Part shown: piece after piece, positions 13,812-47,306 of the stretch | How positions within the stretch are numbered: the first letter of the stretch is position 1 | Layout of the letters: each line of letters starts with the position of its first letter | Virus record (IMG/VR): IMGVR_UViG_2703718798_000005 | Direction: 5' to 3' (one strand) | Source of the DNA: a virus | Lineage: Duplodnaviria > Heunggongvirae > Uroviricota > Caudoviricetes | DNA length: 49,477 nucleotides | Translations under genes and position numbers: made by a program | The notes under the pieces: model-generated | Seen by the model: only the letters and a program-made list of their open reading frames with translations | The model's database searches: none | Told to the model about the DNA's origin: nothing

Positions 13812-13814
13812 CTC

Positions 13815-16357: not shown

Positions 16358-16359
16358 CG

Positions 16360-25773: not shown

Positions 25774-26019
25774 ATGAAAACCATCTTTATCAAACCCGCG
25801 CCGGGACGCCTGATTCGTGATCCCGACACAATGCGCCCGCTGGCACAGGAGGGGGAGGAAAAGCCCTTTACGCCGTTCTGGTGTCGGCGTCTTGATGACG
25901 GCGATGTCATTCAGGCTGAAAAAGCCGCTGAAGAGGCTCCGGCTGTATCTGCGGATGCAACGACTGCGACAGAAAAACCGGTCGCCCAACCGGCATCCGA
26001 TAAGGAGAAACCGCAATGA
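25774..26019 (+). CDS. Hypothetical protein (Mu gp38 position)
   Basis: 81 aa ORF immediately upstream of the sheath gene. Confidence 0.45.
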   Translation: MKTIFIKPAPGRLIRDPDTMRPLAQEGEEKPFTPFWCRRLDDGDVIQAEKAAEEAPAVSADATTATEKPVAQPASDKEKPQ

Positions 26020-27515: not shown

Positions 27516-27523
27516 GGTAAGGC

Positions 27524-27889: not shown

Positions 27890-27903
27890 TCAGGAAAAAT
27901 AAA

Positions 27904-28380: not shown

Positions 28381-28506
28381 AGAAGCGGCAATTATCCTGG
28401 GGATGGTGACAAAAAGCGGTCCGGAATGGGCGCTTAACCTCCCCCTGTCGCAACTTTACCGGCACTGCCGACAGACAGAAAAAATCATCAGAACGAAGCA
28501 GTAAGT

Positions 28507-30582: not shown

Positions 30583-31914
30583 CGGTCGTGGTGCGTTCCG
30601 TGGTGTGCCGTTCCTCGTCTGGCGTGAGCAGCGCGAACGTGGTGGGCGAAACATTGTCCGTCGGGAATATCCGTTACGGGAAACCGGTGGGGCAGACGAT
30701 CTGGGACCTAAACTGACTGAATTTACGTTCAGTGTACTTGTGATGGGGGATGATGTTCAGACACAGCGAAATCGTCTGCGTGATGCCCTTCGTGCTCCCG
30801 GTGCCGGGGAGCTGCTTCACCCGGATTACGGCACGTTAAATGTGCTGATAAACAGCTTTGAAAGTCGTTATAACGCCGCTGAACAGGGCGTGGTTGAGTT
30901 CACCATTAATGTCACGCCGGTAAGTGATGATACCGCACCTGCTGTCACACAGGACACGGCCGCCATTCTGGAGCAGAAGAGTACCACCGCGCTCGGGCAG
31001 GTTTTTGAAACCCTGGAAGCGGGCTGGACGGTGATCTCTGACGGAATGCACGATGTCCAGGCAATGACCGAAACCATCAGTGATAAGGTGTCCGCCCTGG
31101 AAAATGCCGTTTCCGGCATGGGGATTGTACAGGATATCAGTGCCTTTACTGCCACGTTCACGGCGCTGAAAGGGAATGCCACGGCATTACTGACAGCACC
31201 TTCCCGCATGGCCTCATCTTTTGCGGGGCTTTTCAGTGCCCTGATCACCCTGCCATCGCTGCCGTCACTGTCTTCAGGAGGCCTGAATACCCGGCCGGCA
31301 GTATCGGCCGGACGACATCCGCCGTCTCTCAGGGAATGCCGCAACTGTACAGGACATTATCTTCCCTGCGTTACGTGCTGGATGAGCAGGATAATCCGCA
31401 GACTCTCATCGGTCTGACACCGGCAGCACAAAAGAATATTCGTCTGATACGGGCGGTAATGCAGAGTGCTGCCGTGGTGGCCCAGGCACAGACCGTGGGA
31501 AAACTGCTGGATCAGGTTCTCAGTCAGGAAACCCTGCCGGACAGTGACGCAGCCCACCGTACCTGGCCTGTCTGGCTGGAAAGTTCAGTTGATCTTCAGC
31601 GCATTAACCGTGACTTAAGCGAAGCGCTCGAACGGCAGGTGATGACACTGTCCGGGCAGGGGTATACCGCCACGGCGCTGACGCTTCGTGATGCCAGACT
31701 GGCACTGACAGAGGATCTGAATACACGGGGAGTTCAGCTACCCGGTGCAACAGTAGTGACTGTACGTACCACCGAGCCTGCACTGGTGACCCTGTACCGT
31801 GCCACCGGGAACAGTACCGGCTGGCAACGTTTTGTGCGCCGTAACGGTATTGTTGATCCGCTGTTCATTCCCGGAGGCCATTCAGTGGAGGTGATTAGTG
31901 AGCAGCAGGGTTGA
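30569..31914 (+). pseudogene. DNA circularization protein (Mu N/gp43-like), apparently frameshifted
   Basis: N-terminal part in frame 2 (30569-31417), C-terminal part in frame 1 (open from about 31084, ATG at 31336, to 31914); the frame-2 tail is Cys-rich and implausible while frame 1 reads like protein. Confidence 0.55.
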
Positions 31915-33022
31915 ACTGTATCTGGGCGGTGAGATTTTTTCCGGCTGGCTGACGGTGAGTGTTCGTCGCTCTCTTGAACATCTGGCGGGCTCCTTTGAAC
32001 TGGGGGTAATGATGCCCGGTGTACGCCTTCCGTCATCCGTCCGTGCCGGTCAGTCTCTGGAATTGCGCATTGACGGTCAGCCTGTGATCACTGGCTGGCT
32101 GGATCAGGTCCGGCAGCGCATCAGCGCCACGCGTTTTCAGATCACGCTCAGCGGACGGGATAAAACCGGTGACCTGGTGGACTGTTCAGCCATTCATCCG
32201 GGCAGCCAGTGGAGGAACCGCACGCTGGAGCACATTGCTTCAGATTTGTGTGCTCCGTTCGGGGTCACGGTGCGCTGGCAGGTAAATGATGCAACGGCAG
32301 CCCGGCCCTTTTCCACCTTCACACTGGAAAATTCAGAAACCGTGGCAGATGCGCTGACACGGGCCGCGAGACACAGAGGCGTCCTGGTAACCAGTAATGC
32401 CGCCGGTGAACTGGTTTTCACTCAGGCCGGCAGTCAGCGTGGCGACACGCTGACGCTGGGCGAAAATCTGCTGGATTTGGATCACAACGTGGATCACCGT
32501 CTGCGCCACAGTGAATACCGTGTACGGGGGCACGGGCGTGGTGGTGGTCATGCCGGGGATGCACTGACAGCCGGAACGCTGGCCGCACCAGTTGGTACGG
32601 TGACAGACAGTGCCATCCACCGTTACAGACCGAAAATTGTGCTGGCGGATCATGCTGTTGATGCAGACGGTGCACGCCAGAGGGCTGTCCGGGAAATGCG
32701 CCGGGCGGTTGCCCGCTCTGTGCGCCTGACAGCCACCGTGCGGCACTGGTTTCGGGAGAACGGCCAGTTGTGGGATATCAACCTGCTGACGGCTGTCACG
32801 GCTCCCCGCACCGGAGTGGAAGAGCGTGATCTTCTTGTCTGTCAGGTGGAGTTTTCGCTGGATGCAAATCACGGCGAAACCACCCGTCTGATTCTGGCAC
32901 CCCGTGACGGCTTTATTGTTCCGGCAGAGCCGGGAAACAGCGGAAGCGGAAATGCGGGTGACGTGGACGCCTTCGTGCGGGCACAGATGAAAAAACAGGG
33001 GATTAAATTCAATGATGAATGA
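31898..33022 (+). CDS. Baseplate hub / late control D-like tail protein (Mu gp44-like)
   Basis: 374 aa; position after the tape measure and N genes. Confidence 0.7.
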   Translation: MSSRVELYLGGEIFSGWLTVSVRRSLEHLAGSFELGVMMPGVRLPSSVRAGQSLELRIDGQPVITGWLDQVRQRISATRFQITLSGRDKTGDLVDCSAIHPGSQWRNRTLEHIASDLCAPFGVTVRWQVNDATAARPFSTFTLENSETVADALTRAARHRGVLVTSNAAGELVFTQAGSQRGDTLTLGENLLDLDHNVDHRLRHSEYRVRGHGRGGGHAGDALTAGTLAAPVGTVTDSAIHRYRPKIVLADHAVDADGARQRAVREMRRAVARSVRLTATVRHWFRENGQLWDINLLTAVTAPRTGVEERDLLVCQVEFSLDANHGETTRLILAPRDGFIVPAEPGNSGSGNAGDVDAFVRAQMKKQGIKFNDE

Positions 33023-33626
33023 CGAAGTCATCAGCCGCCTTCTGGCCCCCGTGATGCGGGGTGTTCGTCTGCTGTTCGGGCGTGGTGTACTGACCGGCAC
33101 AACGGACACGCTGAAAATCCAGAATGTGCAAATCACCGGTATGGATGGTGAAACCTTTGATGACGTTGAACGCCCCCAGCAGTACGGGCAAATCAGCGTC
33201 CCCCTGCCTGGTGCGGAAGTTTTTCTGGCCTGTGCTGGCGGACAACGGGATCAGGCCGTGGTGCTTGTGGTGGAAGACCGCCGCAGTCGCCCGACCGGAC
33301 TTACCGCCGGAGATACCGGCGTGTATCACCATGAGGGGCACCGTATACGTCTGACAAAGAACGGCCGGATCATTGTGACCTGTAAGACACTGGAGATTTA
33401 CGCCGATGAAGGTGTTCAGGTGGATACACCGGAGGCTCACTTTACCGGTAATATCACAGTGGATAAGAACCTGCATGTCAAAGGCAATGTGTCCATTGAC
33501 GGCACCGGAAGATCACAGGGGGCGTTCACGATGTCCGAAGCGGTTATTGCCGGGATCACCTATTCAGGTCATGTGCATCACGATAACGGTGAAGGCAGCA
33601 AAACGGGAGGACCAGAGAATGGCTGA
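33012..33626 (+). CDS. Baseplate assembly/spike protein (Mu gp45-like)
   Basis: 204 aa; position. Confidence 0.7.
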   Translation: MMNDEVISRLLAPVMRGVRLLFGRGVLTGTTDTLKIQNVQITGMDGETFDDVERPQQYGQISVPLPGAEVFLACAGGQRDQAVVLVVEDRRSRPTGLTAGDTGVYHHEGHRIRLTKNGRIIVTCKTLEIYADEGVQVDTPEAHFTGNITVDKNLHVKGNVSIDGTGRSQGAFTMSEAVIAGITYSGHVHHDNGEGSKTGGPENG

Positions 33627-34056
33627 TATTGCTGTCGTCTGGGATCAGGGTTGTGGTTCCCTGCAACTGAACGGCGCAGATCTTCTGACGGATAACAGCC
33701 TGCTGACTGCGGTCATTATTTCACTGTTTACGGACAGGCGGGCGCTGGATTCCGATGAAATCCCTGACGGCACCCGTGACCGTCGGGGATGGTGGGGAGA
33801 CAGTTTCCGGGAGCGCCCCATTGGCTCCCGTCTCTGGCTGTTAAGCCGTGAAAAGACGCTGTCCTCCGTGGTCAGCCGTGCACAGGCCTATGCTGATGAA
33901 GCGCTGGCGTGGCTGCATAAAAGCGGTGCTGCCACATCCGTGGTATGTCATGCCATGCGTGTGGGGCATGATCGCCTTTCGCTTTCCGTGAAAATCACCC
34001 TGCCGGACGGAAGCAGACATCCGATGATTTTTTATGCTGATATGAAGGGGGAATGA
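33619..34056 (+). CDS. Baseplate protein (Mu gp46-like)
   Basis: Start moved to ATG 33619 overlapping the preceding stop; position. Confidence 0.65.
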   Translation: MADIAVVWDQGCGSLQLNGADLLTDNSLLTAVIISLFTDRRALDSDEIPDGTRDRRGWWGDSFRERPIGSRLWLLSREKTLSSVVSRAQAYADEALAWLHKSGAATSVVCHAMRVGHDRLSLSVKITLPDGSRHPMIFYADMKGE

Positions 34057-35138
34057 TGCCTTATCAGCCCTTACCACTGGCGCAACTGATCACACAGACA
34101 CAACAGGATATCAGCCAGCGCCTGCCCGGTTCGCAGCCGGGCGTGAATGAAACCACCCTGAATGCCATTGCGTATGCACTGGCGGGTCTGTCAGCACAGG
34201 AGCATGAACATCTGGCCTGGATCTCCCGGCAGATAATTCCGACAGAAGCTGATGAAGCCGAACTCCTGAAACACTGCGCATTCTGGGGTGTCATCCGTAA
34301 ACCGGCTTCCCGCGCTGACGGACCGGTACAACTGATGCTGACCACGGATGCAGGGATCACGGAAGGCGTACTCCTTCAGCGAAGCGATGGTGTTGTGTAC
34401 CGCATCACCGGCTCTGCGACCGGAAAAGCCGGAACACTGAATGTTAATGTGGAGGCGGAAAGTGCGGGGCGCGCCGGAAATACCCCGACCGGAACCCGCC
34501 TGTCCTTTATCACGCCACAGGCGGGCATCAACCAGACAGCCACGGTTACCGGCACGGGACTCACCGGTGGTGCGGATGTGGAAACGGTGCCGGAGTTGCT
34601 GTCCAGGCTGGTATTCCGGGTACAGAACCCGCCATCAGGGGGAACACAGTATGATTTTGAACGCTGGGCACGGGAAGTACCGGGCGTGACGCGGGCATGG
34701 TGTAAGCCTGAATGGCCTGAGGCGGGTAGTGTTGGTGTGACTTTTGTTCAGGATAATAACCCTGACATTTTCCCCGGAGAAGGTGATGTGAAGCGGGTGG
34801 CGGATTATATCCGCAGTCATGATGATCCGGCGACGGGCCAGCCCGTTGGTCAGCCACTTGGGCCGACAATCAGCGTGTTTAAGCTGACCAATAAGCCGGT
34901 GGCGTTTGAGATCAGGATTGTACCCAAAACGCCGGAAAATCAGGCTGCCGTAAAACAGGCATTAACGGACCTGCTTTATAACGAATCGCGGCCGGGTGGA
35001 CTTGTATTGCCTTCATCATTCTGGCGGGCTGTTGCAGGGGTGAAAGGACTGGAGGATTTTGAAGTTCGCAGTCCGCTGAAGTCCGTGATGGCCGGAGATA
35101 CAGAGTTGCTGACCGTGGGGGAAATCACATGGCTGTAA
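34053..35138 (+). CDS. Baseplate J-like protein (Mu gp47-like)
   Basis: 361 aa; position and size. Confidence 0.75.
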   Translation: MMPYQPLPLAQLITQTQQDISQRLPGSQPGVNETTLNAIAYALAGLSAQEHEHLAWISRQIIPTEADEAELLKHCAFWGVIRKPASRADGPVQLMLTTDAGITEGVLLQRSDGVVYRITGSATGKAGTLNVNVEAESAGRAGNTPTGTRLSFITPQAGINQTATVTGTGLTGGADVETVPELLSRLVFRVQNPPSGGTQYDFERWAREVPGVTRAWCKPEWPEAGSVGVTFVQDNNPDIFPGEGDVKRVADYIRSHDDPATGQPVGQPLGPTISVFKLTNKPVAFEIRIVPKTPENQAAVKQALTDLLYNESRPGGLVLPSSFWRAVAGVKGLEDFEVRSPLKSVMAGDTELLTVGEITWL

Positions 35139-35689
35139 CCCTGACCCCGCATCAGCGCGCCCTGTTGCAGTTGCTGCCTGACGGGCTGGCATGGGATAAG
35201 CGGCCGTCATCCGTTCTTGCGGCTTTGTGCCTGGGCCTCAGTCATTCCACGGAGCGTGTTTCCTGGACCGGTAACCAGATGCTGGCAGAACGTTTTCCTG
35301 ATTCATCCCGTCTGCTGCTGGAAGACTGGGAGCGTTATCTGGGGTTACCGGAATGTGATATGACCGGCGCAACCATTCAGGAACGTCAGCGTTATGCAGG
35401 GAATAAATACCGGATGAAACCCTCTCTTAACCGTGAATTTTATATCCGGTTTGCGGCAGAGTTTGGTTATGAAATAGATATTCAGCCATCACCGGATTCA
35501 CAGTGGGTCAGTATTGTCACGATAAACAGTGAAACCGGCTACCGGAATATGAATGTGCTGGATGATATTCTCACCCCGCTGCGTATTTATGAGGGTGGTG
35601 CGCTGGAATGTATTCTGAACCGTTATAAGCCTGCATGGCAGACGTTTATTTACGTGTATGCAAACAGTCACAAAGAGGAGAATATTTAA
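35129..35689 (+). CDS. Tail protein (Mu gp48-like, DUF2313-like)
   Basis: 186 aa; position before the tail fibre gene. Confidence 0.65.
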   Translation: MAVTLTPHQRALLQLLPDGLAWDKRPSSVLAALCLGLSHSTERVSWTGNQMLAERFPDSSRLLLEDWERYLGLPECDMTGATIQERQRYAGNKYRMKPSLNREFYIRFAAEFGYEIDIQPSPDSQWVSIVTINSETGYRNMNVLDDILTPLRIYEGGALECILNRYKPAWQTFIYVYANSHKEENI

Positions 35690-36600
35690 TGTTCCATGTT
35701 GATAATAATTCCGGCGTGGCGAATATGCCTGAACTGGCTCCGGCGCAGAGTAATACCACCACCTGGTTTACCGAAGGTGACGGACAAAAAGGTATCAGCT
35801 GGATTGGTCAGGACTGGCTGAATATTCTCCAGGCCGAACTGCTGAATATTCTGGCTGAAGCCAGTATTCAGCCGGATAAGGCGCAGTTAAACCAGCTTAC
35901 GCTGTCCATTAAAGCCATTATCGCTGCGAATGCCTTTTCCCGGAAAAACAACCTGAAAGAAATTGCTGATGCCGGTGCGGAAGCCCAGCGTCTGGCCCGT
36001 GGTTATCTTGGTCTGGGGACGCTTGCCACAAAAAACAGTCTTGGTCCCGCTGACGTTAATGCCCTGGCGAAGGATCAGAACCTTGCCGACCTGGAGAATG
36101 CGGAAACCGCCCGTAATAATCTGGATGTTTACAGCAGGAGCGAAGGTGATAACCGTTACCTGCGCAGGGACCAGAATGGCGCGGATATCCAGGACAAAGG
36201 AACCTTTATCGATAACCTCGGTTTACGGGAAACGGTAAATAAGGCTGCTGATGCCCTGCCATCGGCTGGAACCGCCGTGGCAGCAAACAGACTCGCCACC
36301 CCAAGAAATATTAATGGTGTTCCTTTTGACGGAACGCTGGATATCAACATCACGTCAGGAATGACGCAGTCAACCGCAGATGGCCGGTATGTACAGAATG
36401 TTCAGCTTGGAGCACAGAGCTATCATTCACCCGGAGGCAATGAAATGTCATGGAATTACAGCGCACCTTCCGGTTGTATGCTTTCCGGTATTAACGTGCA
36501 GGAAACCGGCTCCCGGTCTGCGGACAATATCGGTGGGGTCTATTATCGCCCGGTTCAGATTTATATTAATAATACCTGGAGAACGGTAAGTTCAGTGTAA
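35689..36600 (+). CDS. Tail fibre protein S (constant part plus currently fused variable tip)
   Basis: Start at ATG 35689 overlapping the preceding stop; crosses the left recombination site at about 36206-36231; last roughly 120 aa lie inside the invertible segment. Confidence 0.8.
   Translation: MFHVDNNSGVANMPELAPAQSNTTTWFTEGDGQKGISWIGQDWLNILQAELLNILAEASIQPDKAQLNQLTLSIKAIIAANAFSRKNNLKEIADAGAEAQRLARGYLGLGTLATKNSLGPADVNALAKDQNLADLENAETARNNLDVYSRSEGDNRYLRRDQNGADIQDKGTFIDNLGLRETVNKAADALPSAGTAVAANRLATPRNINGVPFDGTLDINITSGMTQSTADGRYVQNVQLGAQSYHSPGGNEMSWNYSAPSGCMLSGINVQETGSRSADNIGGVYYRPVQIYINNTWRTVSSV
36206..36231. repeat. Left recombination site (gix-like) inside the tail fibre gene
   Basis: TTATCGATAACCTCGGTTTACGGGAA, close to the Mu gix sequence as recalled. 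Confidence 0.7.
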
Positions 36601-36634
36601 ACCACAGAAAAGGGTGCTGAATGCACCCTCTGAA

Positions 36635-37156
36635 TTATTCCGGTTTTTCCGGCCAGGGAATCGCCTGGTAATGCCCCTCACTGGCAATATCATTAAAGTG
36701 CATTTCTTTAAGCTGTCGGATATACGCCATCCAGCGCGTCAGCTGTAATTTATTTTCATCGCTAATCATGTCCAGTTTTAATTCTGTTTTCCAGTCATCC
36801 ACGGTTTCGTTGGCTTCCTGGAGCAGCGATGAGCGACGCTTTTCAGCAACCGTCTTCCAGTTTACCGGCACCTTTGATATCAGGCCATCAGAAAACTGCC
36901 AGTTACCGTCAATATTCACACCTTCCGGCAGTTCGTCCACTTCAACAACAGTAAAACCTGCCGGATATAAAGCAGAGACATCTTCAGCAACAGAGCAGAT
37001 AATACCCGTTACAGGCGAAATACAGAGTTTGTATTTCTTTGTAAAAAGCGGGATAGATTCATAAAAATCCCTTCCGTCCTCACTCTGGAAATACTGAACA
37101 TCCTCACCATAGGGTTTGTCTTTCGGGTAATATCGTTTGACATTAATCAGTTGCAT
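36635..37156 (-). CDS. Tail fibre assembly protein (Tfa/U-like)
   Basis: Start moved to internal Met (MQLINVKRYY); C-terminal ...QAIPWPEKPE typical of Tfa chaperones; inside the invertible segment. Confidence 0.75.
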   Translation of the reverse strand: MQLINVKRYYPKDKPYGEDVQYFQSEDGRDFYESIPLFTKKYKLCISPVTGIICSVAEDVSALYPAGFTVVEVDELPEGVNIDGNWQFSDGLISKVPVNWKTVAEKRRSSLLQEANETVDDWKTELKLDMISDENKLQLTRWMAYIRQLKEMHFNDIASEGHYQAIPWPEKPE

Positions 37157-37277
37157 AAACATCACCATGTAAATCAATGATAAAAACAGGAATAATACTA
37201 TCGCCATATACAGGCAATGCTTGTCTGAAATAACGCATATTTCAGATGCTGGCTGCTGTGTGCTATGCCCCCGTTAA

Positions 37278-37649
37278 TTAAATACTTGCAGCGGATACCC
37301 AATGCCCATTAATACAATATTGTATCTGTCTGTAATAAACACGGTCATCACCACCACGCATTTCCCAGTCTCCGTCAGTCTTAAAACCGGTAATCACATT
37401 TCCTGATGACAGGGAGTAATTATATTCCAGTCCGCCGCTTAATGCCTGCGCTCCCAGTCTTACCCCTGTAACATAACGCTGATTGGCCGTTGATTCCGGC
37501 ATTCCTGACGTAATGTTTATATCCTGCGTGCCGTCAAAGGCGACACCATTGATTCTGCGGGCATTTGCCAGCCTGCTTGCTGCAACAGCCGTACCGTTTG
37601 ATGGCAGGGCATTCGCGGCCCTGTTTACCGTATCCCGTAAACCGAGGTT
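37278..37649 (-). CDS. Alternative tail-fibre C-terminal segment (promoterless until inversion)
   Basis: Minus-strand frame reads NLGLRDTVNRAANALPSNGTAVAASRLA..., parallel to NLGLRETVNKAADALPSAGTAVAANRLA... of the expressed tip; a stop lies immediately outside the right recombination site. Confidence 0.7.
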   Translation of the reverse strand, partial: NLGLRDTVNRAANALPSNGTAVAASRLANARRINGVAFDGTQDINITSGMPESTANQRYVTGVRLGAQALSGGLEYNYSLSSGNVITGFKTDGDWEMRGGDDRVYYRQIQYCINGHWVSAASI

Positions 37650-37657
37650 TCAGGGAT
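37632..37657. repeat. Right recombination site (gix-like), inverted
   Basis: ATCCCGTAAACCGAGGTTTCAGGGAT, inverted relative to the left site. Confidence 0.7.
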
Positions 37658-37711
37658 GCCGTATATCTACTTTAAAAGGCTTTTCCACCTCTTTTTAAGG
37701 AAGGTAAATAC

Positions 37712-38272
37712 ATGCTGATTGGCTATATACGCGTATCAACAAATGACCAGAACACCGGTTTACAAAGAAATGCGCTGGAATGTGCAGGATGTGAGCAGAT
37801 TTTTGAAGACAAAATGAGTGGTAAAACGACACAGCGGCCGGGACTGAAGCGGGCACTGAAGAAACTAAAACCCGGTGACACGCTGATGGTCTGGAAACTG
37901 GACAGGCTGGGGCGCAGTATGCGCCACCTTGTTGCGCTGACAGATGAATTACAGCAACAGGGGATAAATTTTCGTAGTCTTACTGACAACATTGATACGT
38001 CAACCCCCATGGGGCGCTTCTTTTTTCACATAATGGGTGCGCTGGCAGAAATGGAGCGTGAATTAATTGTCGAACGGACACGGGCTGGTCTTGCAGCTGC
38101 CCGTGAAAGGGGACGAACCGGCGGCAGACCCCGCCGTCTCACGCAGGAACAATACGAGCAGGTCGGGCGTTTACTGGCCGGGGGTGTCAGTCGAAGACAG
38201 GTGGCACTTATTTTTGATATCGGTCTTTCAACCCTTTATCGTTATTATCCTGCGAGCGTTTCGGAAAAATAA
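37712..38272 (+). CDS. gin: Serine DNA invertase (Gin/Hin/Cin family)
   Basis: 186 aa; N-terminal MLIGYIRVSTNDQN catalytic-Ser motif; C-terminal HTH; adjacent to the invertible segment. Confidence 0.9.
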   Translation: MLIGYIRVSTNDQNTGLQRNALECAGCEQIFEDKMSGKTTQRPGLKRALKKLKPGDTLMVWKLDRLGRSMRHLVALTDELQQQGINFRSLTDNIDTSTPMGRFFFHIMGALAEMERELIVERTRAGLAAARERGRTGGRPRRLTQEQYEQVGRLLAGGVSRRQVALIFDIGLSTLYRYYPASVSEK

Positions 38273-38371
38273 GACGCTCTCTTTGTTGGGCCTTTACTGA
38301 ATTAACGCAAAATGGCGTTTATCGGTCTGTGGATATGATAATTCAGTTTATTCAGGAACAGGCTGATTATT

Positions 38372-40411
38372 ATGACGTCCAAATGGGTTCAACTATCATC
38401 AATGCCCGGAAACTTTACTGTTAAAGTTTCCGGTGGTACAGCGGCATTTCTTGAGGCTCCCTTTCCTCCGGCCGAAACAAAAGGAGGAATGACATTTGCT
38501 GACTGTCTCATCAGTTTTAATACACGGGATTGCCTGTGGGTAAGGCCAGTATCCGGTGATCCGAGTGTGGAAATTACCGGAGCGGGTATTGGTGCGGTCA
38601 TTCCGTTAAGTGCTGATGTTGCCGGTACTGCTGAACCGTCAGACTGGGATAATGCTGAAACACATACCCGTCCGTCAGGAAATGAAACTGCTTCCAGCTC
38701 CCCTTCCTGGTATTACGTGGTGGTTCTTGCTGGTCAGTCAAACGGTATGGCTTACGGTGAAGGTCTGCCACTGCCGGAGACATATGACCGCCCCGAACCG
38801 CGTATTATGCAGTTAGCCCGTCGCAGTACAGTCACGCCGGGAGGTAAAGCCTGTCAGTATAACGACATCATTCTGGCCGACCACTGTCTGCATGATGTGC
38901 AGGATATGAGTGGAAAAAATCACCCGAAAGCGGATGTGGCTAAAGGGCAATATGGCACCGTGGGTCAGGGGCTTCACATTGCCAAAAAACTGCTGCCGTT
39001 TATTCCGGCAGATGCGGGGATTCTGCTGGTTCCCTGCTGCCGTGGTGGTTCTGCATTCACGGCGGGTGCTGACGGCACGTACAGTGACAGCACGGGTGCT
39101 TCAGAGGACTCAGCCCGCTGGGGTGTGGATAAGCCGCTGTATAAGGACTTAATCAGCCGGACAAAAGCGGCACTGGCGAAGAACCCGAAAAACCGCCTGC
39201 TTGCTGTGGTGTGGATGCAGGGCGAGTTTGATATTGATGCGAAGCCGACGGAGCATTCTGCGCTGTTTCTGGCGATGGTGGAAAAATTCCGCGCAGACCT
39301 GGCTGAACAGGCGGAACAGTGTACCGGTGGCAGTGCTGCTGGCGTTCCGTGGATTTGTGGCGATACCACGTATTTCTGGAAACAGAAAAATGAACCAGCA
39401 TACCAGGCAATCTATGGCGGCTACAAAAACAAAACAGATAAAAACATTCATTTCGTTCCATTAATGACAGATGAAAATGGCGTGAATGTACCCACCAACA
39501 ATCCGGCAGAAGACCCGGATATTGAATCCATTGGTTATTACGGCTCAACGTGGCGTAACAGTGCCGCTACCTGGACATCTGCGGACCGGGCCAGCCATTT
39601 CAGTGCCTGGGCGCGCCGGGGTATTATTTCTGACCGTCTGGCCACGGCTGTTCTGACTCATGCAGGGCGAACCACAGTAAAAGCCGATGTTCCATCTTCT
39701 GAAACTGAAGCACCAGTGCCGTCACCTTCAGAAACTGAAGCAGTAACCACAACACTGCTGTCTTACCGTGTCAGTGAGTCAGAAGGAAATCTGAAAGCCC
39801 AGGGCTGGGAGCCGGCTGGCGGTAAAGCTGAAATTATCAGTGATGCAGGAGGCACAGGTGGTAAGGCAATGAAACTGACCAAGGAAACAGGTAAATCATC
39901 CTGGTATCTGGATCATGATGCCGGTACTGGTGCTGAACTGCTGAAAAATGGTGGTTTAATCAGTTGTCGTTTTAAAGTACCTGGCGACCTGGTGGCAAAC
40001 CAGTATGTCATGGCGCTTTACTGGCCGGTTTCCTCTCTGCCGCAGGGTGTCACCCTGACAGGGGATGCAGGGAATAATCTGCTGGCATCGTTCTACATCC
40101 AGACAGACGCAAAAGACCTGAATGTGATGTACCACAATGCAAAAGTGGCAACAAATAACCAGAAACTGGGAACCTTTGGTGCATTTGATAATGAATGGCA
40201 TACGCTGGCCTTCCGTTTTGCAGGAAATAACAGCCTTCAGGTTATTCCGGTTATTGATGGTCAGGATGGTGCCGCGTTTACCCTGACGCAGTCACCAGTA
40301 GGAACTTTCCCGGTGGACAAACTCCGCGTAACGGATATCACCAAAAATGCAACTTACCCGGTGCTGATTGACAGCATTGTGGTGGAAGTGAAAAAAGCGG
40401 TAACAGAATAA
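38372..40411 (+). CDS. Cargo protein: SASA/SGNH-type esterase domain (sialate O-acetylesterase-like, NanS-p-like) with a lectin-like C-terminal domain
   Basis: 679 aa; YYVVVLAGQSNGMAYGEG block resembles the GQSN motif of DUF303/SASA esterases; C-terminal 200 aa may be a ConA-like beta-sandwich; no counterpart at this position in Mu. Confidence 0.55.
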   Translation: MTSKWVQLSSMPGNFTVKVSGGTAAFLEAPFPPAETKGGMTFADCLISFNTRDCLWVRPVSGDPSVEITGAGIGAVIPLSADVAGTAEPSDWDNAETHTRPSGNETASSSPSWYYVVVLAGQSNGMAYGEGLPLPETYDRPEPRIMQLARRSTVTPGGKACQYNDIILADHCLHDVQDMSGKNHPKADVAKGQYGTVGQGLHIAKKLLPFIPADAGILLVPCCRGGSAFTAGADGTYSDSTGASEDSARWGVDKPLYKDLISRTKAALAKNPKNRLLAVVWMQGEFDIDAKPTEHSALFLAMVEKFRADLAEQAEQCTGGSAAGVPWICGDTTYFWKQKNEPAYQAIYGGYKNKTDKNIHFVPLMTDENGVNVPTNNPAEDPDIESIGYYGSTWRNSAATWTSADRASHFSAWARRGIISDRLATAVLTHAGRTTVKADVPSSETEAPVPSPSETEAVTTTLLSYRVSESEGNLKAQGWEPAGGKAEIISDAGGTGGKAMKLTKETGKSSWYLDHDAGTGAELLKNGGLISCRFKVPGDLVANQYVMALYWPVSSLPQGVTLTGDAGNNLLASFYIQTDAKDLNVMYHNAKVATNNQKLGTFGAFDNEWHTLAFRFAGNNSLQVIPVIDGQDGAAFTLTQSPVGTFPVDKLRVTDITKNATYPVLIDSIVVEVKKAVTE

Positions 40412-40447
40412 AAAAATCCCGCCGGTCATGATATGGCTGGCGGGAGC
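40412..40447. terminator. Hairpin flanked by an A-tract (terminator-like, better oriented for the minus strand)
   Basis: AAAAAAA-TCCCGCC...GGCGGGA; on the minus strand the hairpin is followed by TTTTTTT. Confidence 0.4.
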
Positions 40448-40557
40448 TACCTAACCCATAAAGGAAAATAAAAATACTCCCGAAGGAGTGGTTATCAGTC
40501 GCTTCGATGTTTTTACCCGATAACGAATTATGTAGTCAATATCAAAGGTAAGGTTAT

Positions 40558-40740
40558 ATGACATTCGTTCATACAATGCTGCTTTATTTCTGCGCTGTGG
40601 TCAGTGCGTTATATCTGGTGAGCGGCGGTTATAAGGTCATCAGAAATTATATTCGCCGTAAAATTGATGATGCGGCAGCTGAAAAACTCAGTAAAACAGC
40701 ACAGGCACCGTCATCCCCAAACGACCCGACCCCGCTCTGA
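40558..40740 (+). CDS. Small predicted membrane protein (cargo region)
   Basis: 60 aa; N-terminal TM helix LLYFCAVVSALYLVSGG. Confidence 0.35.
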   Translation: MTFVHTMLLYFCAVVSALYLVSGGYKVIRNYIRRKIDDAAAEKLSKTAQAPSSPNDPTPL

Positions 40741-40775
40741 TAACGGGGCAATATACCTGCAAAAGGAGAATATTC

Positions 40776-41021
40776 ATGCCAGAGATTAAAGGCACGGTTA
40801 CTGAAGAGCTTGTCAAACAGGCACTTTATTCTGAAGAAGTGAACCGCGTGCTGAAGGCGCAGGTTCGCAAGGATTTTGAGGCACAAATCGACGCATATGT
40901 TGATGAAGTGCTGGCCCGAATGGTTGGCCGTTCTCCGGCTGAAAACAGCACGGAAAATGATCCTCAACCCGTAGAGCAACCAGAGCCGGTTCAGCCCGGA
41001 ACTGACGGTACTATGATGTAA
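40776..41021 (+). CDS. Small acidic hypothetical protein (cargo region)
   Basis: 81 aa ORF with RBS AAAGGAGAA. Confidence 0.4.
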   Translation: MPEIKGTVTEELVKQALYSEEVNRVLKAQVRKDFEAQIDAYVDEVLARMVGRSPAENSTENDPQPVEQPEPVQPGTDGTMM

Positions 41022-41569
41022 CAATACCGACCGGCAGGTTTCCCTGCCGGGTGAGTTTGTTAATGCACGTTTTGTGTATTTTCCCTCCTGGGAGAACAGG
41101 CAGGACATATCAGCATCCTGAAACAGGAAGCATTTTTGGGTTTGTATGTCTTGCCATTTTGAGATCGAGAACGGCGATAGATGAGCTGTAAGGGAGTCTT
41201 ACAGGCAGGGCAAACAGGCTCTTTCATCCATGATAAAGATCTCCTTTTTATGCATCTCTGCTTTACAGGAGACTGGGGAATATCATAGGATACGCCACGA
41301 GCTCGAAGTAAAGCATTGATGCAAAATTGTCTAAATCGGCCCAGAATAGTTCGCGCTATCTGGGTCGCTCTTTATGTATGTAGTATCCCATTGATTTGAA
41401 ACATACTACATATACGCGCGATCCTACCTTCACTATATAAAAAGTCAATAAAATGATCATTTTATGATCGTTTTCACCACCTAACTCTTCGTTTTCTTTA
41501 AGTAAATAATCACCTACCTGAATCATTGTTGATGACTTTTCAATCTATTTGTTGTATCAATTAAACAAA

Positions 41570-41640
41570 TCGAATCGATCGTTTTTGTCGATCGATTGCA
41601 TGAGAAAGGCATCAACAACAAAGCAGGAGGTTATGCGGCC
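41570..41640 (+). promoter_or_regulatory. com-mom promoter-proximal region with paired GATC sites
   Basis: GATC at about 41577 and 41590 within ATCGAATCGATCGTTTTTGTCGATCGATTG; RBS AGGAGG before com. Confidence 0.4.
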
Positions 41641-41841
41641 ATGTATCGAAACATACGGTGCCGACACTGCAATAAGCTACTGGCACGGGCCAGTTTCAGT
41701 TATCTGGAAGTAAAATGTCCGCGCTGTAAAACCCTCAATCAAATCACATCTCCGAGCGCCACAGAGCACCCCACATACACAAGGAAATCCTGTCGTGGGG
41801 AACAGAAAGCAAGTCACATCCCGAATCATCAGCACGCCTGA
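41641..41841 (+). CDS. com: Com-like zinc-finger translational activator of mom
   Basis: Start moved to ATG 41641; [14 protein letters not shown]...[11 protein letters not shown] four-Cys pattern like Mu Com; overlaps the mom start. Confidence 0.75.
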
Positions 41842-42532
41842 ACTTATTCGCTATAACGACAATATCGTTGGTTATGGCTCCCGTGAGTTGCGGGTTGAGA
41901 CAATAAGTTGCTGGCTGGCCAGACTGGTCATCGTCAATAAACATTACAGCCACCGTTTCGTAAATAACTCCTACCTTCATCTGGGCATATTTTCAGAACG
42001 GGAACTTGTTGGCGTAATGCAATGGGGTTACGCCCTTAACCCAAACAGTGGTGCACGCGTCGTAACGGGTACGCAGAACCGAGAATATATGGAGCTTAAC
42101 CGGCTATGGCTGCATGACTGTATGCCGAGAAACTCCGAATCAAGGGCAATCAGTTACGCGCTCAAGCTAATCAGGCAGCTTTATCCGCAGGTACAGTGGG
42201 TTCAGTCGTTTGCAGATGAGCGTTGTGGCTGTCTTGGTGTCGTGTATCAGGCAAGCAATTTTGATTATGTAGGCAGCCATGAATCAATATTCTATGAACT
42301 TGATGGCGAGTGGTATCACGAGATTTGCAGGAATGCCATTAAACGAGGCGGACAACGAGGTGAACATCTGAGGGCTAATATTGACAGAGCCAATGTTCAT
42401 AAGTTCCGACAGTTTCGTTACATCCGGTTTCTGAACAAGAGGGCCAAAAAACGCCTCAACACAAAGCTATTCAAAGTCCAGCCTTACCCAAAACCACAAA
42501 CAGTTAAAACTGGTTTGAAAGAGAGTGAATGA
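41795..42532 (+). CDS. mom: Mom-like DNA modification protein
   Basis: 245 aa; last gene at the right end and overlapped by com, as in Mu; start codon uncertain. Confidence 0.75.
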
Positions 42533-42584
42533 GCGCTTAAAAACTCATTCTAAAACTCAAAAGAAAAGCGCCGATTTAGTATCA

Positions 42585-42659
42585 AATAAGTTGCGTATCG
42601 GCGTTTTTCAGCAGTATCAAATGAAATGCAAATCGGTATCAAAAAAATCGCCGCGCTAT
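42585..42659. repeat. Prophage right end (attR-like) with three inverted TTTGATAC repeats
   Basis: AGTATCAAA at about 42588, AGTATCAAA at about 42613, GGTATCAAA at about 42636. Confidence 0.5.
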
Positions 42660-42660
42660 A

Positions 42661-45441
42661 TGGGATGAATACCATCACCTGCTGGCCCGCCACTCCCCTG
42701 CCGGGCGGGTGGAGAAATTTGAATACAACGCCGCACATGGTCAGTTAAGCTGTTATACGGCGGCAGACGGCGCGGAGTGGCAGTACTGCTATGATGAGCG
42801 CGGCCTGCTCAGCAACATCACCGACCCTGCCGGGCAGACGTGGACGCAGCAGTGTGATGAACGCGGCCTGCCGGTGAGTCTGGTGTCGCCACAGGGCGAA
42901 GAGACCCGGCTGGCATACACCGCACAGGGGCTGCTGTCGGGAATATTCCGCCAGGATGAACGGCACCTGGGCATAGAGTACGACCACCACAACCGGCCGG
43001 AAACACTCACCGACGTGATGGGCCGTGAACACCACACCGAATACAGTGGTCACGACCTGCCGGTGAAGATGCGCGGCCCCGGCGGTTAGTCAGTGCGGTT
43101 GCAGTGGCAGCAGCACCATAAACTGAGCGGCCTTGAGCGGGCAGGAACCGGCGCAGAAGGATTCCGCTATGACCGCCACGGCAACCTGCTGGCGTACACG
43201 GACGGTAACGGCGTTGTCTGGACAATGGAATACGGCCCGTTTGATTTGCCGGTGGCGCGAACGGACGGTGAAGGCCACCGCTGGCAGTACCGCTACGATA
43301 AAGACACGCTGCAACTGACAGAAGTCATTAACCCGCAGGGCGAGTCTTATCTTTATATTCTGGACAACTGTGGCCGGGTGACGGAAGAACGTGACTGGGG
43401 CGGCGTGGTCTGTCGTTACCGCTATGACGCCGATGGCCTGTGTACCGCCAGGGTTAACGGCCTGGAGGAAACTATCCTCTACAGCCGGGACGCCGCAGGC
43501 CGCCTGGCAGAAATCATCACGCCGGAAGGCAAAACGCAGTATGCGTATGACAAATCCGGCAGGCTGACGGGTATCTTCAGCCCGGACGGCACATCACAGC
43601 GCACCGGCTATGATGAACGCGGGCGGGTGAATGTCACCACTCAGGGCCGACGGGCCATTGAATACCACTACCCCGACGAACACACCGTCATCCGCTGTAT
43701 CCTGCCACCGGAAGATGAACGCGACAGACACCCCGATGAATCCCTGCTGAAAACCACGTACCGTTATAACGCCGCCGGAGAACTGACGGAGGTCATTCTG
43801 CCGGGGGATGAGACGCTGACGTTCAGCCGTGATGAGGCGGGACGTGAAGTGCTCCGGCACAGTAACCGGGGTTTTGCCTGTGAGCAGGGCTGGAATGCAG
43901 CCAGCCAGCTTGTCACCCAGCGCGCCGGATTTTTCCCGGAGGAAACCACATGGGGCGGGCTGCTCCCCTCACTGGTACGGGAGTACCGTTACGACAGCGC
44001 GGGCAATGTGTCGGCTGTCACCAGCCGGGAAGATTACGGACGGGAAACACGGCGGGAGTACCGGCTGGACCGGAACGGTCAGGTCACGGCGGTGACAGCC
44101 TCAGGCACCGGGCTGGGCTATGGCGAAGGCGATGAGTCCTATGGCTATGACAGTTGTGGCTACCTGAAGGCGCAGTCTGCGGGCAGGCACCGGATAAGTG
44201 AAGAGACTGACCAGTATGCCGGAGGCCACCGGCTGAAACAGGCCGGAAACACGCAGTATGACTATGACGCCGCAGGCCGGATGGTCAGCCGCACAAAACA
44301 CCGTGACGGCTACCGCCCGGAAACAGAGCGGTTCCGGTGGGACAGCCGGGACCAGCTGACCGGGTATTGCAGCGCACAGGGTGAACAGTGGGAATACCGC
44401 CACGACGCCAGCGGCAGACGAACAGAGAAACGCTGTGACAGGAAGAAAATCCGCTTCACGTACCTGTGGGATGGCGACAGTATTGCGGAAATCCGGGAAT
44501 ACCGCGATGATGAACTGTACAGCGTACGGCACCTGGTGTTTAACGGCTTTGAGCTGATAAGCCAGCAGTGCAGCCGGGTACGGCAGCCGCACCCGTCCGT
44601 GGCCCCGCAGTGGGTGACGCGAACGAATCATGCGGTGAGCGACCTGACGGGCCGCCCGCTGATGCTCTTTAACAGTGAAGGTAAAACCGTCTGGCGGCCG
44701 GGGCAGACCAGCCTGTGGGGGCTGGCACTCAGCCTGCCCGCAGACACCGGCTACCCGGACCCGCGCGGGGAGCGGGACCCGGAAGCGGACCCCGGCCTGC
44801 TGTATGCGGGACAGTGGCAGGATGCAGAATCGGGGCTGTGCTATAACCGGTTCCGGTACTACGAGCCGGAAACCGGGATGTACCTGGTGAGTGATCCGCT
44901 GGGGTTGCAGGGAGGGGAGCAGACTTACCGGTATGTGCCGAATCCTTGTGGGTATATCGATCCTTTGGGGCTGGCTATATGTCAGTTAGCCCGCTGGACG
45001 AAATGGGGGAGTGAGCAAAGCAACATATCTGATGTTTTGAACTCATTAGGGAATAGAGCACTTAAATATGCTAATGGTGATTGGATAAAATCAGAGGCTG
45101 CATTCAATAAATACATAAACATGATAAATAAAAGACTAGAATTAACAGGTAGTAAATTTAGAGTTGAGATTCAACCAGCCATAAAAAATGGAGAGCGAGT
45201 TCCTGCGACAACGAATGGACCATTTAAAGTAAATGGTAAGTGGACATCCGGCACTCATTATACAGGTGGTTCCAAACGTCTAGATGCCGGTATTATTGAT
45301 ATCACATCTCCTACAAACCAATATGGATTACATCCAGTTATTGAAGGATTTGATATAACACTTAATAAAACAAAACCATCAGCAGTGGATATATATTCAG
45401 ATGTGTTTGGTGGGATTGATATTAACGACATTCGGTTATAA
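42661..45441 (+). pseudogene. rhs: rhs effector, 3' portion (Rhs repeat core and C-terminal toxin tip), with in-frame TAG at 43087-43089
   Basis: Frame continues the 5' fragment; ORF track splits it into 42709-43089 and 43093-45441 around a TAG; DPLGL-type demarcation (YIDPLGLA) at about 44960; low-GC C-terminal tip of about 150 aa. Confidence 0.8.
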
Positions 45442-45458: not shown

Positions 45459-45866
45459 ATGAAAGAGATTGATTTATTATATGAAAATATTTATCAGCTT
45501 TTAATTAAACCTTACCTACTCGATCTTTCTAGCCAGTCTGGAAAAAAAATAGAAGTAAATTACACATGCAAAATAAAAGATGCTGCTGATGAAATAAAGG
45601 GTAGTATGATTTTTAATGATGTAGATGGTAAACAAAAAGCAACTTGCACTATCAGGGTGTTAATACTAAAAACATTTCACGATGGTCGTTATAGATTTGT
45701 AATTGAATCTGTGATTTATGATTTAATTAATAATTACAGTGGATTTATTTTAACGGGGAGATTGTTTTGGCAAGGGGAAGGTTTTGGCCATGAATTATTC
45801 CCCGTGACAAACAAATATAATGCTTGGAGATGGAAAAATAAAAAAATAATAGATATTTCTTGGTAA
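45459..45866 (+). CDS. Putative Rhs immunity protein (cognate to the main toxin tip)
   Basis: 135 aa AT-rich ORF 17 nt downstream of the rhs stop. Confidence 0.6.
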   Translation: MKEIDLLYENIYQLLIKPYLLDLSSQSGKKIEVNYTCKIKDAADEIKGSMIFNDVDGKQKATCTIRVLILKTFHDGRYRFVIESVIYDLINNYSGFILTGRLFWQGEGFGHELFPVTNKYNAWRWKNKKIIDISW

Positions 45867-45879: not shown

Positions 45880-46905
45880 CGAAAGAGGCCACATGGGGAA
45901 TACTGCTCCCCTCACTGGTACGGGAGTACCGTTACGACAGCGCGGGTAACGTATCAGGCGTCACCAGCCGGGAAGATTACGGACGGGAAACACAGCGGGA
46001 GTACCGGCTTGACCGGAACGGCCAGGTCACGGCGGTGACAGCCTCAGGCACCGGGCTGGGCTATGGCGAAGGCGATGAGTCCTATGGCTATGACAGTTGT
46101 GGCTACCTGAAGGCGCAGTCTGCGGGCGGGCACCGGATAAGTGAAGAGACTGACCAGTATGCCGGAGGCCACCGGCTGAAACAGGCCGGAAACACGCAGT
46201 ATGACTATGACGCCGCAGGCCGGATGGTCAGCCGCACCAGACACCGTGACGGCTATCGCCCGGAAACAGAGCGGTTCCGGTGGGACAGCCGGGACCAGCT
46301 GACCGGGTATTGCAGCGCACAGGGTGAGCAGTGGGAATACCGCCACGACGCCAGCGGCAGACGGACGGAAAAACGCTGTGACCGGAAGAAAATCCGTTTT
46401 ACGTACCTGTGGGACGGCGACAGTATTGCGGAAATCCGGGAATACCGCGATGATGAACTGTACAGCGTACGGCACCTGGTGTTTAACGGCTTTGAGCTGA
46501 TAAGCCAGCAGTGCAGCCGGGTACGGCAGCCGCACCCGTCCGTGGCCCCGCAGTGGGTGACACGAACGAATCATGCGGTAAGCGACCTGACGGGCCGCCC
46601 GCTGATGCTCTTTAACAGTGAAGGCAAGACGGTCTGGCGACCGGGACAGACCAGCCTGTGGGGGCTGGCACTCAGCCTGCCCGCAGACACAGACTACCCG
46701 GACCCGCGCGGGGAGCTGGACGCGGAAGCCGACCCCGGCCTGCTGTATGCAGGACAGTGGCAGGATGCAGAATCGGGGTTGTGCTATAACCGGTTCCGAT
46801 ATTACGAGCCGGAAACCGGGATGTACCTGGTGAGTGATCCACTGGGGTTGCTGGGGGGTAAGCAGACTTACCGGTATGTGCCGAATCCACTGGGGTATAT
46901 TGATC
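45880..46905 (+). repeat. Duplicated rhs core segment (orphan copy of about 43945-44930)
   Basis: Near-identical DNA to the main rhs core; translations match over long stretches (ASGTGLGYGEGDESYGYDSCGYLKAQSAG...). Confidence 0.85.
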
Positions 46906-47306
46906 CGCTGGGGCTGGTAAAAACTTCTGTTCCCGCAGAAAAAATAAGCCTTTCGGATAAAGCAAGAGATCTTTTTAGACAAGGAAAAGTAAGAGAAGCA
47001 TTAGATGTTCATTATGAGGATCTTGTACGAAGAAAGCTTGGTGGTATATCTCAAGAAATTGCCGGGCGTGAATATGATGTTGTTACTGACAAGATCATAG
47101 CGCAGGTCAAGAGGACTTATAGCTCTATAGATAATCCAAAAAACTTCTTAAGTAAGTCTACTCGGACACAAATTAAGAAGACAATTGAGCTGGCTGAAGA
47201 ACAGGGGAAAGAGGCTCAGTTTTGGTTTAAATATGGAGTAAGCCCTAAAGTAAGAGAATATATAGAAAGCAAAGGTGGGAAAGTTATATTGGGTATGGGG
47301 AATTAA
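46035..47306 (+). CDS. Orphan Rhs C-terminal module with a different toxin tip
   Basis: ORF starting at an internal start codon within the duplicated core; after DPLGLV (about 46905) the sequence differs completely from the main tip and becomes AT-rich. Confidence 0.65.
   Translation: MTASGTGLGYGEGDESYGYDSCGYLKAQSAGGHRISEETDQYAGGHRLKQAGNTQYDYDAAGRMVSRTRHRDGYRPETERFRWDSRDQLTGYCSAQGEQWEYRHDASGRRTEKRCDRKKIRFTYLWDGDSIAEIREYRDDELYSVRHLVFNGFELISQQCSRVRQPHPSVAPQWVTRTNHAVSDLTGRPLMLFNSEGKTVWRPGQTSLWGLALSLPADTDYPDPRGELDAEADPGLLYAGQWQDAESGLCYNRFRYYEPETGMYLVSDPLGLLGGKQTYRYVPNPLGYIDPLGLVKTSVPAEKISLSDKARDLFRQGKVREALDVHYEDLVRRKLGGISQEIAGREYDVVTDKIIAQVKRTYSSIDNPKNFLSKSTRTQIKKTIELAEEQGKEAQFWFKYGVSPKVREYIESKGGKVILGMGN

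What the first reader, a model, noticed from the sequence alone, without database searches (positions are those of the whole stretch)
43087..43089. In-frame TAG interrupts the Rhs repeat core downstream of the prophage
The rhs frame reads ...VKMRGPGG-TAG-SVRLQWQQHH... with Rhs repeats continuing in the same frame on both sides, so this is most simply a single TGG to TAG change. Together with the prophage insertion it indicates the effector is a decaying pseudogene, while the toxin tip and immunity pair are retained.
Basis: seen in the sequence. Interest (0 to 1): 0.35.

Follow-up and report, generated by a model that had tools for sequence, protein, structure and literature searches.

The report
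Private amber mutation in split rhs
The TAG is a real one-base nonsense mutation (CAG to TAG, not TGG to TAG), seen only in this contig, in an E. coli type VI secretion Rhs toxin gene that a Mu-like prophage has already cut in two, so it is an ordinary dead gene.

Summary
The in-frame TAG at 43087-43089 is there, with RHS repeats in the same frame on both sides. The gene is the prePAAR/PAAR Rhs effector of the E. coli cusS-nfrB vgrG-eagR-rhs island. A Mu-like prophage (3168-42659, 5-bp target duplication ATGGG) splits it. With the prophage removed in silico, the gene is 4878 nt, the same length as intact 1625-aa orthologues. It has no frameshift and one internal stop, codon 842.

The ancestral codon is CAG (Gln), not TGG. 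All 11 copies examined in public loci carry CAG. A 41-mer that can only seed across the T finds nothing in 5,426 complete E. coli genomes, while the C version finds 2,289 places in 2,037 genomes. The change is therefore a private C-to-T amber mutation.

Either lesion alone separates the N-terminal delivery module from the C-terminal shell, autoprotease motif and toxin. The toxin tip and the immunity protein are 100% identical to those of intact alleles. With only six private substitutions in the whole gene, that shows recency, not selection. Independent truncations of this gene are common (11 of 28 copies sampled). A sequencing error cannot be excluded. The finding is ordinary and of low interest.

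The parts
1..558 (+). 3' end of vgrG (T6SS spike), cut by the window edge
   Evidence: Pfam Gp5_trimer_C on the called product. Orthologous loci have a 633-aa VgrG at this place.
586..1047 (+). eagR-type chaperone gene (DcrB/DUF1795 family)
   Evidence: Pfam DcrB E=1.4e-27. It holds the same position as the 'DcrB-related protein' in RefSeq E. coli loci.
1067..3167 (+). 5' part of rhs (codons 1-700 plus the first base of codon 701): prePAAR, PAAR, DUF6531 and the first RHS repeats. The ORF runs 5 nt into the prophage and stops at TAA 3170-3172.
   Evidence: Pfam prePAAR_I, PAAR_motif, DUF6531 and RHS_repeat. Colinear with intact orthologues up to 3167.
3163..3167 (.). Left copy of the 5-bp target-site duplication ATGGG
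   Evidence: Uninterrupted orthologue L004 reads ...TATGAATGGGATGAAT... with one copy of ATGGG.
3168..42659 (+). Mu-like transposable prophage (39.5 kb) inserted in rhs, in the same orientation as rhs
   Evidence: MuA-type transposase, MuB, Gam, Kil, Gp11 and Gp12 families. Mom E=2.6e-77. Gin-type invertase. 95.7% identical to the 'Bacteriophage Mu-like phage' annotated in LC727881 from query base 1. The Mu/rhs junction is absent from 5,426 E. coli genomes. The right end is precise to within about 2 nt.
42660..42664 (.). Right copy of the target-site duplication ATGGG
42664..43086 (+). rhs codons 701-841 (RHS repeats), between the prophage and the amber codon
   Evidence: Pfam RHS_repeat E=1.8e-23. 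99.6% identical to E. coli TB06051 rhs over 42666-43600.
43087..43089 (+). Amber codon TAG = rhs codon 842. The ancestral codon is CAG (Gln). The mutated base is 43087 (C->T).
43090..45441 (+). rhs codons 843-1625: rest of the RHS shell, DPLGL autoprotease motif at aa 1444, toxin tip aa 1466-1625 (no Pfam family), stop codon
   Evidence: Pfam RHS_repeat, 6 stretches. DPxGL motif position and 160/160 aa identity of the tip to four intact orthologues. No Pfam hit for the tip.
45459..45866 (+). Cognate immunity gene (135 aa, no family), intact
   Evidence: The exact protein sequence is present in 1,440 blocks of the public collection, directly after the intact 1625-aa rhs in L004, L006, L007 and L011.
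46035..47306 (+). Orphan rhs C-terminal module (Tox-REase-3 toxin), followed by its putative immunity gene (about 47308-47673) and a SUKH-3 immunity gene (47948-48415)
   Evidence: Pfam Tox-REase-3 E=7.9e-36 and SUKH-3 E=1.4e-12. Same arrangement in L004 and L006.

Best explanation
A spontaneous C->T transition at 43087 turned Gln codon 842 (CAG) of an E. coli T6SS Rhs effector gene into an amber stop. The gene belongs to the class I prePAAR type, in the vgrG-eagR-rhs island between cusS and nfrB, called rhsF of the vgrG1 island in EDL933 nomenclature. In the same contig a Mu-like prophage has transposed into codon 700/701, 420 nt upstream. Each lesion alone separates the N-terminal delivery module (prePAAR, TMD, PAAR) from the C-terminal half of the Rhs shell, the DPLGL autoprotease motif and the toxin. 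No deliverable toxin can therefore be made, and whichever lesion came second was selectively neutral. Shown: both lesions, the ancestral codon, the absence of the TAG allele elsewhere, and the otherwise intact frame. Inferred: loss of function, neutrality of the second hit, and that the base call is correct. The order of the two events is unknown. The toxin tip, its immunity gene and the downstream orphan modules are unaltered. The simplest reason is that little time has passed, and the immunity genes may in addition remain useful against kin that carry the intact toxin.
For: The TAG is present and in frame with RHS repeats on both sides. With the prophage removed, the gene is 4878 nt, the same length as the intact 1625-aa orthologues L004, L006, L007 and L011, with a single internal stop at codon 842. 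CAG occupies this codon in all 11 homologous copies in L001-L013, and C occupies this base in all 39 informative copies among 42 loci. A 41-mer in which every 28-nt seed contains the T has no match in 5,426 complete E. coli genomes. The same 41-mer with C matches 2,289 places in 2,037 genomes. The TAG 27-mer has 0 hits in metagenome contigs, while the CAG 27-mer has 30. The 5-bp duplication ATGGG and the Mu gene set show a true transposition. DPLGL at aa 1444 and the toxin lie downstream of the stop. The Rhs shell must enclose the toxin, and the N-terminal prePAAR-PAAR region is what mounts the protein on VgrG (PMC8636562). Independent truncations are common in this gene: 11 of 28 sampled copies stop early, after 384, 431, 705, 868, 1170 or 1187 aa, and the O157:H7 copy is annotated as frameshifted. 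One nonsense change among six private substitutions is not unusual under neutrality (probability about 0.21).
Against: Reads are not available, so a base-calling or assembly error at 43087 cannot be excluded. The window is a single IMG/VR contig with no second copy in the collections. No sister strain was found, so the order of the two lesions and their age are unknown. The rest of the genome is unseen, so an amber suppressor tRNA elsewhere cannot be ruled out. It would not matter here, because the Mu insertion already breaks the gene.
Confidence: 0.85

Rival explanations
1. The TAG is a sequencing or assembly error in the contig, and the true sequence is CAG. The only real lesion in rhs would then be the Mu-like prophage.
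For: The allele is unique. There are 0 matches in 5,426 E. coli genomes against 2,289 places for the C version, and 0 against 30 in metagenome contigs. Only one contig carries this locus. Five of the six private differences in the gene are G:C>A:T changes, a pattern that cytosine-deamination artefacts can also produce.
Against: G:C>A:T is also the commonest spontaneous substitution in E. coli (established knowledge). The private changes are few (6 in 4.9 kb) and half are synonymous, as expected of real polymorphism. There are no indels or frameshifts of the kind that mark poor assemblies. A gene already broken by Mu is free to pick up a stop codon.
Confidence: 0.1
2. The amber codon was selected rather than neutral. 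After the Mu insertion, transcription reading out of the prophage's right end (mom, same orientation as rhs) could have driven synthesis of a 908-aa headless Rhs fragment carrying the toxin. The stop 141 codons into the fragment abolishes that burden. Alternatively, re-initiation at GTG 43093 yields a separate 782-aa C-terminal product.
For: The prophage and rhs have the same orientation, and mom ends 130 nt before the junction. The first in-frame start of the 3' fragment (GTG 42709) lies upstream of the TAG, and a GTG follows the TAG by 3 nt.
Against: No sigma-70-like promoter was found on the + strand in 42400-46100, and site counts do not exceed the shuffled controls. Between mom and the prophage's right end, 42566-42610 reads GCGCCGAT...ATCGGCG followed by a run of T (read by eye in the sequence). 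The terminator scan did not report it, and it may limit read-through. The cognate immunity gene is intact and would neutralise any toxin made. One nonsense change among six private changes is within neutral expectation. A C-terminal fragment lacks PAAR and cannot be mounted on VgrG (PMC8636562).
Confidence: 0.04
3. The TAG is decoded by natural amber suppression or programmed read-through, so the codon is not a true terminator.
For: A glnV (supE)-type suppressor would restore exactly the ancestral Gln at a CAG->TAG site (established knowledge of E. coli suppressors).
Against: No tRNA gene of any kind lies in the window. No other E. coli copy uses TAG here, so there is no conserved recoding site. 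The Mu insertion upstream disconnects this codon from the gene's start, so read-through could not restore the effector.
Confidence: 0.01

Closest known systems
E. coli vgrG1-island Rhs effector (rhsF of EHEC EDL933; z0707 vgrG1 / z0706 eagR locus; PMC7216683)
   Same: Same chromosomal place (cusS ... vgrG, DcrB/EagR, rhs, immunity, orphan rhs-CT, ISAs1, nfrB), 97-98% nucleotide identity, and the same toxin tip and immunity gene as O157:H7 and many commensal strains.
   Different: This copy carries a private amber at codon 842 and a Mu-like prophage at codon 700/701. The O157:H7 copy is broken at a different place by a frameshift.
Class I prePAAR Rhs effectors with Eag chaperones (P. protegens RhsA, P. 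laumondii Rhs1; PMC7773334, PMC8765631, PMC8636562)
   Same: Domain order prePAAR, TMD, PAAR, RHS shell, DPxGL, toxin, with an upstream VgrG and a DUF1795/DcrB chaperone.
   Different: Those are intact, experimentally active effectors. Here the gene cannot make a full-length protein.
rhs pseudogenes and relics in Enterobacteriaceae (Jackson et al. 2009, PMC2935791)
   Same: rhs loci are scored as pseudogenes or relics in many E. coli strains, and displaced fragments carry frameshifts and/or premature stop codons.
   Different: Here the main full-length gene is hit, not a displaced tip, and it has only two lesions, so it is at an early stage.
Mu-like prophages of STEC (for example the 'Bacteriophage Mu-like phage' inserted in Stx phages LC727881 and LC727895)
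   Same: 95.5-95.7% identity over the 83-89% of the first 23.8 kb that is covered, Mu-type transposition genes, a 5-bp target duplication, and insertion into unrelated genes in different strains.
   Different: The insertion site in rhs was not seen in any of 5,426 complete E. coli genomes.

Membership tests
T6SS class I prePAAR Rhs effector | prePAAR motif followed by a PAAR domain at the N-terminus | tested here: met
   PF25799 prePAAR_I 26.5 bits (cut-off 25) at aa 54-100. PF05488 PAAR_motif E=1e-17 at aa 266-310.
T6SS class I prePAAR Rhs effector | Upstream VgrG and an Eag (DUF1795/DcrB) chaperone gene | tested here: met
   Gp5_trimer_C product at 1-558 and a DcrB-family product at 586-1047.
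T6SS class I prePAAR Rhs effector | RHS/YD-repeat shell ending in a DPxGL aspartyl autoprotease motif, then a variable toxin and a downstream immunity gene | tested here: met
   RHS_repeat hits throughout, DPLGL at aa 1444, a 160-aa tip, and a 135-aa ORF 17 nt downstream. Toxin activity and immunity function were not tested.
T6SS class I prePAAR Rhs effector | An uninterrupted reading frame giving one polypeptide (needed for function, not for ancestry) | tested here: not met
   Mu-like prophage at codon 700/701 and TAG at codon 842.
Pseudogene by nonsense mutation | Orthologues carry a sense codon at the aligned position and read through | tested here: met
   CAG in 11 of 11 copies. The C version is found at 2,289 places in 2,037 genomes and the T version at none. 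Intact 1599-1625-aa ORFs in L001, L004, L006, L007, L011 and others.
Pseudogene by nonsense mutation | The truncation removes parts needed for function | tested here: met
   The stop at codon 842 of 1625 removes 784 aa: half of the shell, the DPLGL motif and the toxin. That these parts are required is taken from PMC8636562.
Pseudogene by nonsense mutation | The stop is real (not a sequencing error) and is not suppressed or recoded | not testable with these tools
   No reads and no full genome are available. There is no tRNA gene in the window.
Mu-like transposable prophage | MuA/MuB transposition genes, a Mu-type late region with mom, and a 5-bp target-site duplication | tested here: met
   HTH_Tnp_Mu_1 and Mu-transpos_C, Phage-MuB_C, Phage_Mu_Gam. 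Mom. ATGGG duplicated at 3163-3167 and 42660-42664.

The most novel reading that the evidence does not exclude
The amber codon is an adaptive second-site change. It silences a headless Rhs-toxin fragment that would otherwise be expressed by transcription reading out of the Mu-like prophage, or it creates a two-piece Rhs through re-initiation at the GTG 3 nt downstream. On this reading the stop is not a neutral hit in a dead gene.
Probability: 0.04. Interest if true: 0.3.

Novelty: already known. Interest (0 to 1): 0.08.

Why it matters
It matters little beyond annotation. The stretch 1067-45441 should be annotated as one rhs pseudogene interrupted by a prophage. It should not be annotated as three separate genes (701, 126 and 782 aa), and the host flanks should not be counted as phage cargo in this viral contig. 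It adds one more case to a recurrent pattern: the main rhs gene of the cusS-nfrB island is often inactivated in E. coli, while the immunity genes and orphan toxin modules downstream stay in place. That fits the idea that immunity outlasts attack capacity, but this single locus does not test it.

Tried and rejected
1. TGG as the ancestral codon is rejected. Every orthologue has CAG.

2. A natural gene boundary at this point is rejected. Intact orthologues read through, and the reconstructed gene has exactly their length.

3. I looked for sister genomes carrying the TAG or the Mu/rhs junction, to order the two events. None turned up in 5,426 E. coli genomes. The fusion protein 1067-3172 occurs only on the window's own contig.

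4. Exact-pattern scans of viral contigs and genome contigs were uninformative. The CAG control also found nothing there. Only the metagenome scan had a working control.

5. A Dcm (CCWGG) deamination hotspot is rejected. The context is GGTCAGTC.

6. There is no suppressor tRNA in the window.

7. The promoter and terminator scan around the remnant found nothing on the + strand and nothing above the shuffled background.

8. The private substitutions (3 synonymous, 2 missense, 1 nonsense) are too few to test for relaxed selection.

9. The toxin tip has no Pfam family, and I did not pursue its activity.

Full report
**Observation**

Bases 43087-43089 are TAG. Pfam RHS_repeat matches the 141 residues before the stop (E=1.8e-23) and the 783 residues after it (E=6.4e-47, six stretches) in the same frame.

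**Context**

- The window is a 49,477-base IMG/VR contig (ENA ERZ26120531, IMG_VR_364) made of a prophage and its host flanks.
- The flanks are E. coli. They form the vgrG / DcrB-family (EagR) chaperone / rhs island that lies between cusS and nfrB in many strains. In EDL933 nomenclature this is the vgrG1 (z0707) / eagR (z0706) / rhsF island (PMC7216683).
- The rhs gene starts at 1067 and encodes prePAAR, PAAR, DUF6531 and the first RHS repeats.
- At 3167/3168 it runs into a Mu-like prophage. The prophage carries MuA-type transposase, MuB, Gam and Kil, a Gin-type invertase and Mom. It is 95.7% identical to the 'Bacteriophage Mu-like phage' annotated inside Stx phage LC727881.
- The uninterrupted orthologue reads ...TATGAATGGGATGAAT... 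In the window ATGGG occurs at 3163-3167 and again at 42660-42664, flanking the element. This is the 5-bp target duplication expected of Mu transposition.
- The prophage therefore spans 3168-42659, and rhs resumes at 42664/42665.
- This junction is absent from all 5,426 complete E. coli genomes searched.

**Reconstruction**

Joining 1067-3167 to 42665-45441 gives 4878 nt. That is exactly the length of the intact 1625-codon orthologues in L004, L006, L007 and L011. There is no frameshift and only one internal stop, at codon 842, which is the TAG. The gene therefore has two lesions and no more: the prophage at codon 700/701 and the amber 141 codons further on.

**Ancestral state**

- In all 11 homologous copies found in loci L001-L013 the codon is CAG (Gln).
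- Across 42 public loci, all 39 informative copies have C at the position of 43087.
- A 77-nt query found 2,089 E. coli genomes with a full-length match. The best matches were at 98.7%, meaning one mismatch.
- I made this rigorous with a 41-mer in which every possible 28-nt megablast seed contains the T. It has no match at E<=10. The same 41-mer with C matches 2,289 places in 2,037 genomes.
- In metagenome contigs the TAG 27-mer has no hit and the CAG 27-mer has 30.
- The viral and species-representative genome collections contain neither version and say nothing.

The change is therefore C->T at 43087 (CAG->TAG), private to this contig. The local context, GGTCAGTC, is not a Dcm site.

**Consequence**

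The DPLGL autoprotease motif (aa 1444) and the toxin tip (aa 1466-1625) lie downstream of the stop. In Rhs effectors of this class the N-terminal prePAAR-PAAR region mounts the protein on VgrG with the help of EagR. The RHS shell encloses the C-terminal toxin, which is released by autocleavage (PMC8636562). Both the Mu insertion and the amber separate the delivery module from the toxin, so either one is enough to inactivate the effector. Whichever came second had no further effect. This loss of function is inferred from the family's known architecture and was not measured.

**Order and age of the lesions**

No sister genome with only one lesion was found, so the order is unknown. The window's rhs has six private substitutions against the 42 loci: P52S, G362G, R730C, A787A, Q842* and E1274E. 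Five of the six are G:C>A:T. In this gene 3.9% of all single-base changes and 4.6% of G:C>A:T transitions create a stop. At least one nonsense change among six neutral substitutions therefore has a probability of about 0.21, which is unremarkable for a gene already released from selection.

**Toxin tip and immunity pair**

The tip (160 aa) is identical to that of four intact orthologues, and the 135-aa immunity protein is identical to a sequence found in 1,440 blocks of the public collection. With roughly one private change per 800 nt, no change in 0.9 kb is expected anyway. 'Retained' here means not yet altered, and it does not demonstrate selection. The downstream orphan module (Tox-REase-3), its small ORF and a SUKH-3 immunity gene are arranged as in intact strains.

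**How common is inactivation of this gene?**

Of 28 public copies in which the rhs start codon could be followed, 17 read through for 1505-1625 aa. Eleven stop early, after 384, 431, 705, 868, 1170 or 1187 aa. The 705-aa class is due to a 67-bp deletion between short repeats. The O157:H7 copy is annotated as frameshifted in RefSeq. The sample is not random and includes low-coverage metagenome contigs, so the fraction is rough, but recurrent independent inactivation is clear. It agrees with earlier surveys that scored many E. coli rhs loci as pseudogenes or relics (PMC2935791).

**Rivals**

- *Sequencing error (about 0.1).* The allele is unique and reads are unavailable. Against this, there are no indels and the few private changes look like ordinary polymorphism.
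- *Adaptive silencing of a headless Rhs fragment, or a split Rhs by re-initiation at GTG 43093 (about 0.04).* The orientation allows it. But no + strand promoter was found, the immunity gene is intact, and a fragment without PAAR cannot be secreted.
- *Amber suppression (about 0.01).* There is no tRNA gene in the window, no conserved TAG elsewhere, and the Mu insertion makes it irrelevant.

**Verdict**

This is a real but ordinary feature: a private amber mutation in a known E. coli T6SS rhs effector gene that a Mu-like prophage has also split. It is of low interest, and its main value is for correct annotation of the contig's host flanks.

Noticed in passing
window 3168-42659, with duplications at 3163-3167 and 42660-42664: A complete-looking Mu-like prophage (39.5 kb) has transposed into rhs codon 700/701 with a 5-bp ATGGG target duplication. 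Close relatives sit in many unrelated genes in STEC and O157 genomes and inside Stx phages. The top-strand right end appears to finish ...GCGCTAT rather than the canonical Mu ...CA, so the exact end is uncertain by about 2 nt.
   Followed up: partly
window 38372-40411 (+): A 679-aa ORF between the Gin-type invertase (37712-38272) and com/mom carries a SASA sialate-O-acetylesterase domain and DUF6645. Classical Mu has no gene at this position. From memory, untested here: it resembles the NanS-p esterases of EHEC prophages. It may be a cargo gene.
   Followed up: partly
L018, L019, L020, L024, L026, L036, L037, at the position corresponding to window 3145-3167 plus 42665-42708: Several gut-metagenome E. 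coli contigs share a 67-bp out-of-frame deletion between short GCCGG(A/G)CGG repeats in the same rhs gene, truncating it after 705 aa. By coincidence the deleted stretch includes the Mu insertion point of the window.
   Followed up: partly
L002 (E. coli O157:H7 PV15-279), L008, L009, L012, L015, L031, L032: The orthologous rhs is independently truncated at five or more other positions (after 384, 431, 868, 1170 or 1187 aa). Overall 11 of 28 sampled copies are broken, while the downstream immunity gene is kept.
   Followed up: partly
window 1220, 2152, 42751, 42924, 43087, 44385: The window's rhs has six private substitutions relative to 42 public loci, and five of them are G:C>A:T transitions (P52S, G362G, R730C, Q842*, E1274E). 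This may be ordinary mutational bias or a hint of deamination-type error.
   Followed up: no
window 41600-41790 (+) and 41795-42532 (+): A Com-like zinc-finger ORF (...[28 protein letters not shown]...) lies directly upstream of mom, as in phage Mu. I identified Com by eye only. Mom was confirmed by Pfam.
   Followed up: partly
window 45442-49477: The array downstream of the main rhs holds an orphan rhs-CT with a Tox-REase-3 toxin (46035-47306), a small ORF (about 47308-47673), a SUKH-3 immunity gene (47948-48415) and a further 134-aa ORF (48958-49362) with no convincing family. The layout is the same as in strains with an intact main rhs.
   Followed up: partly
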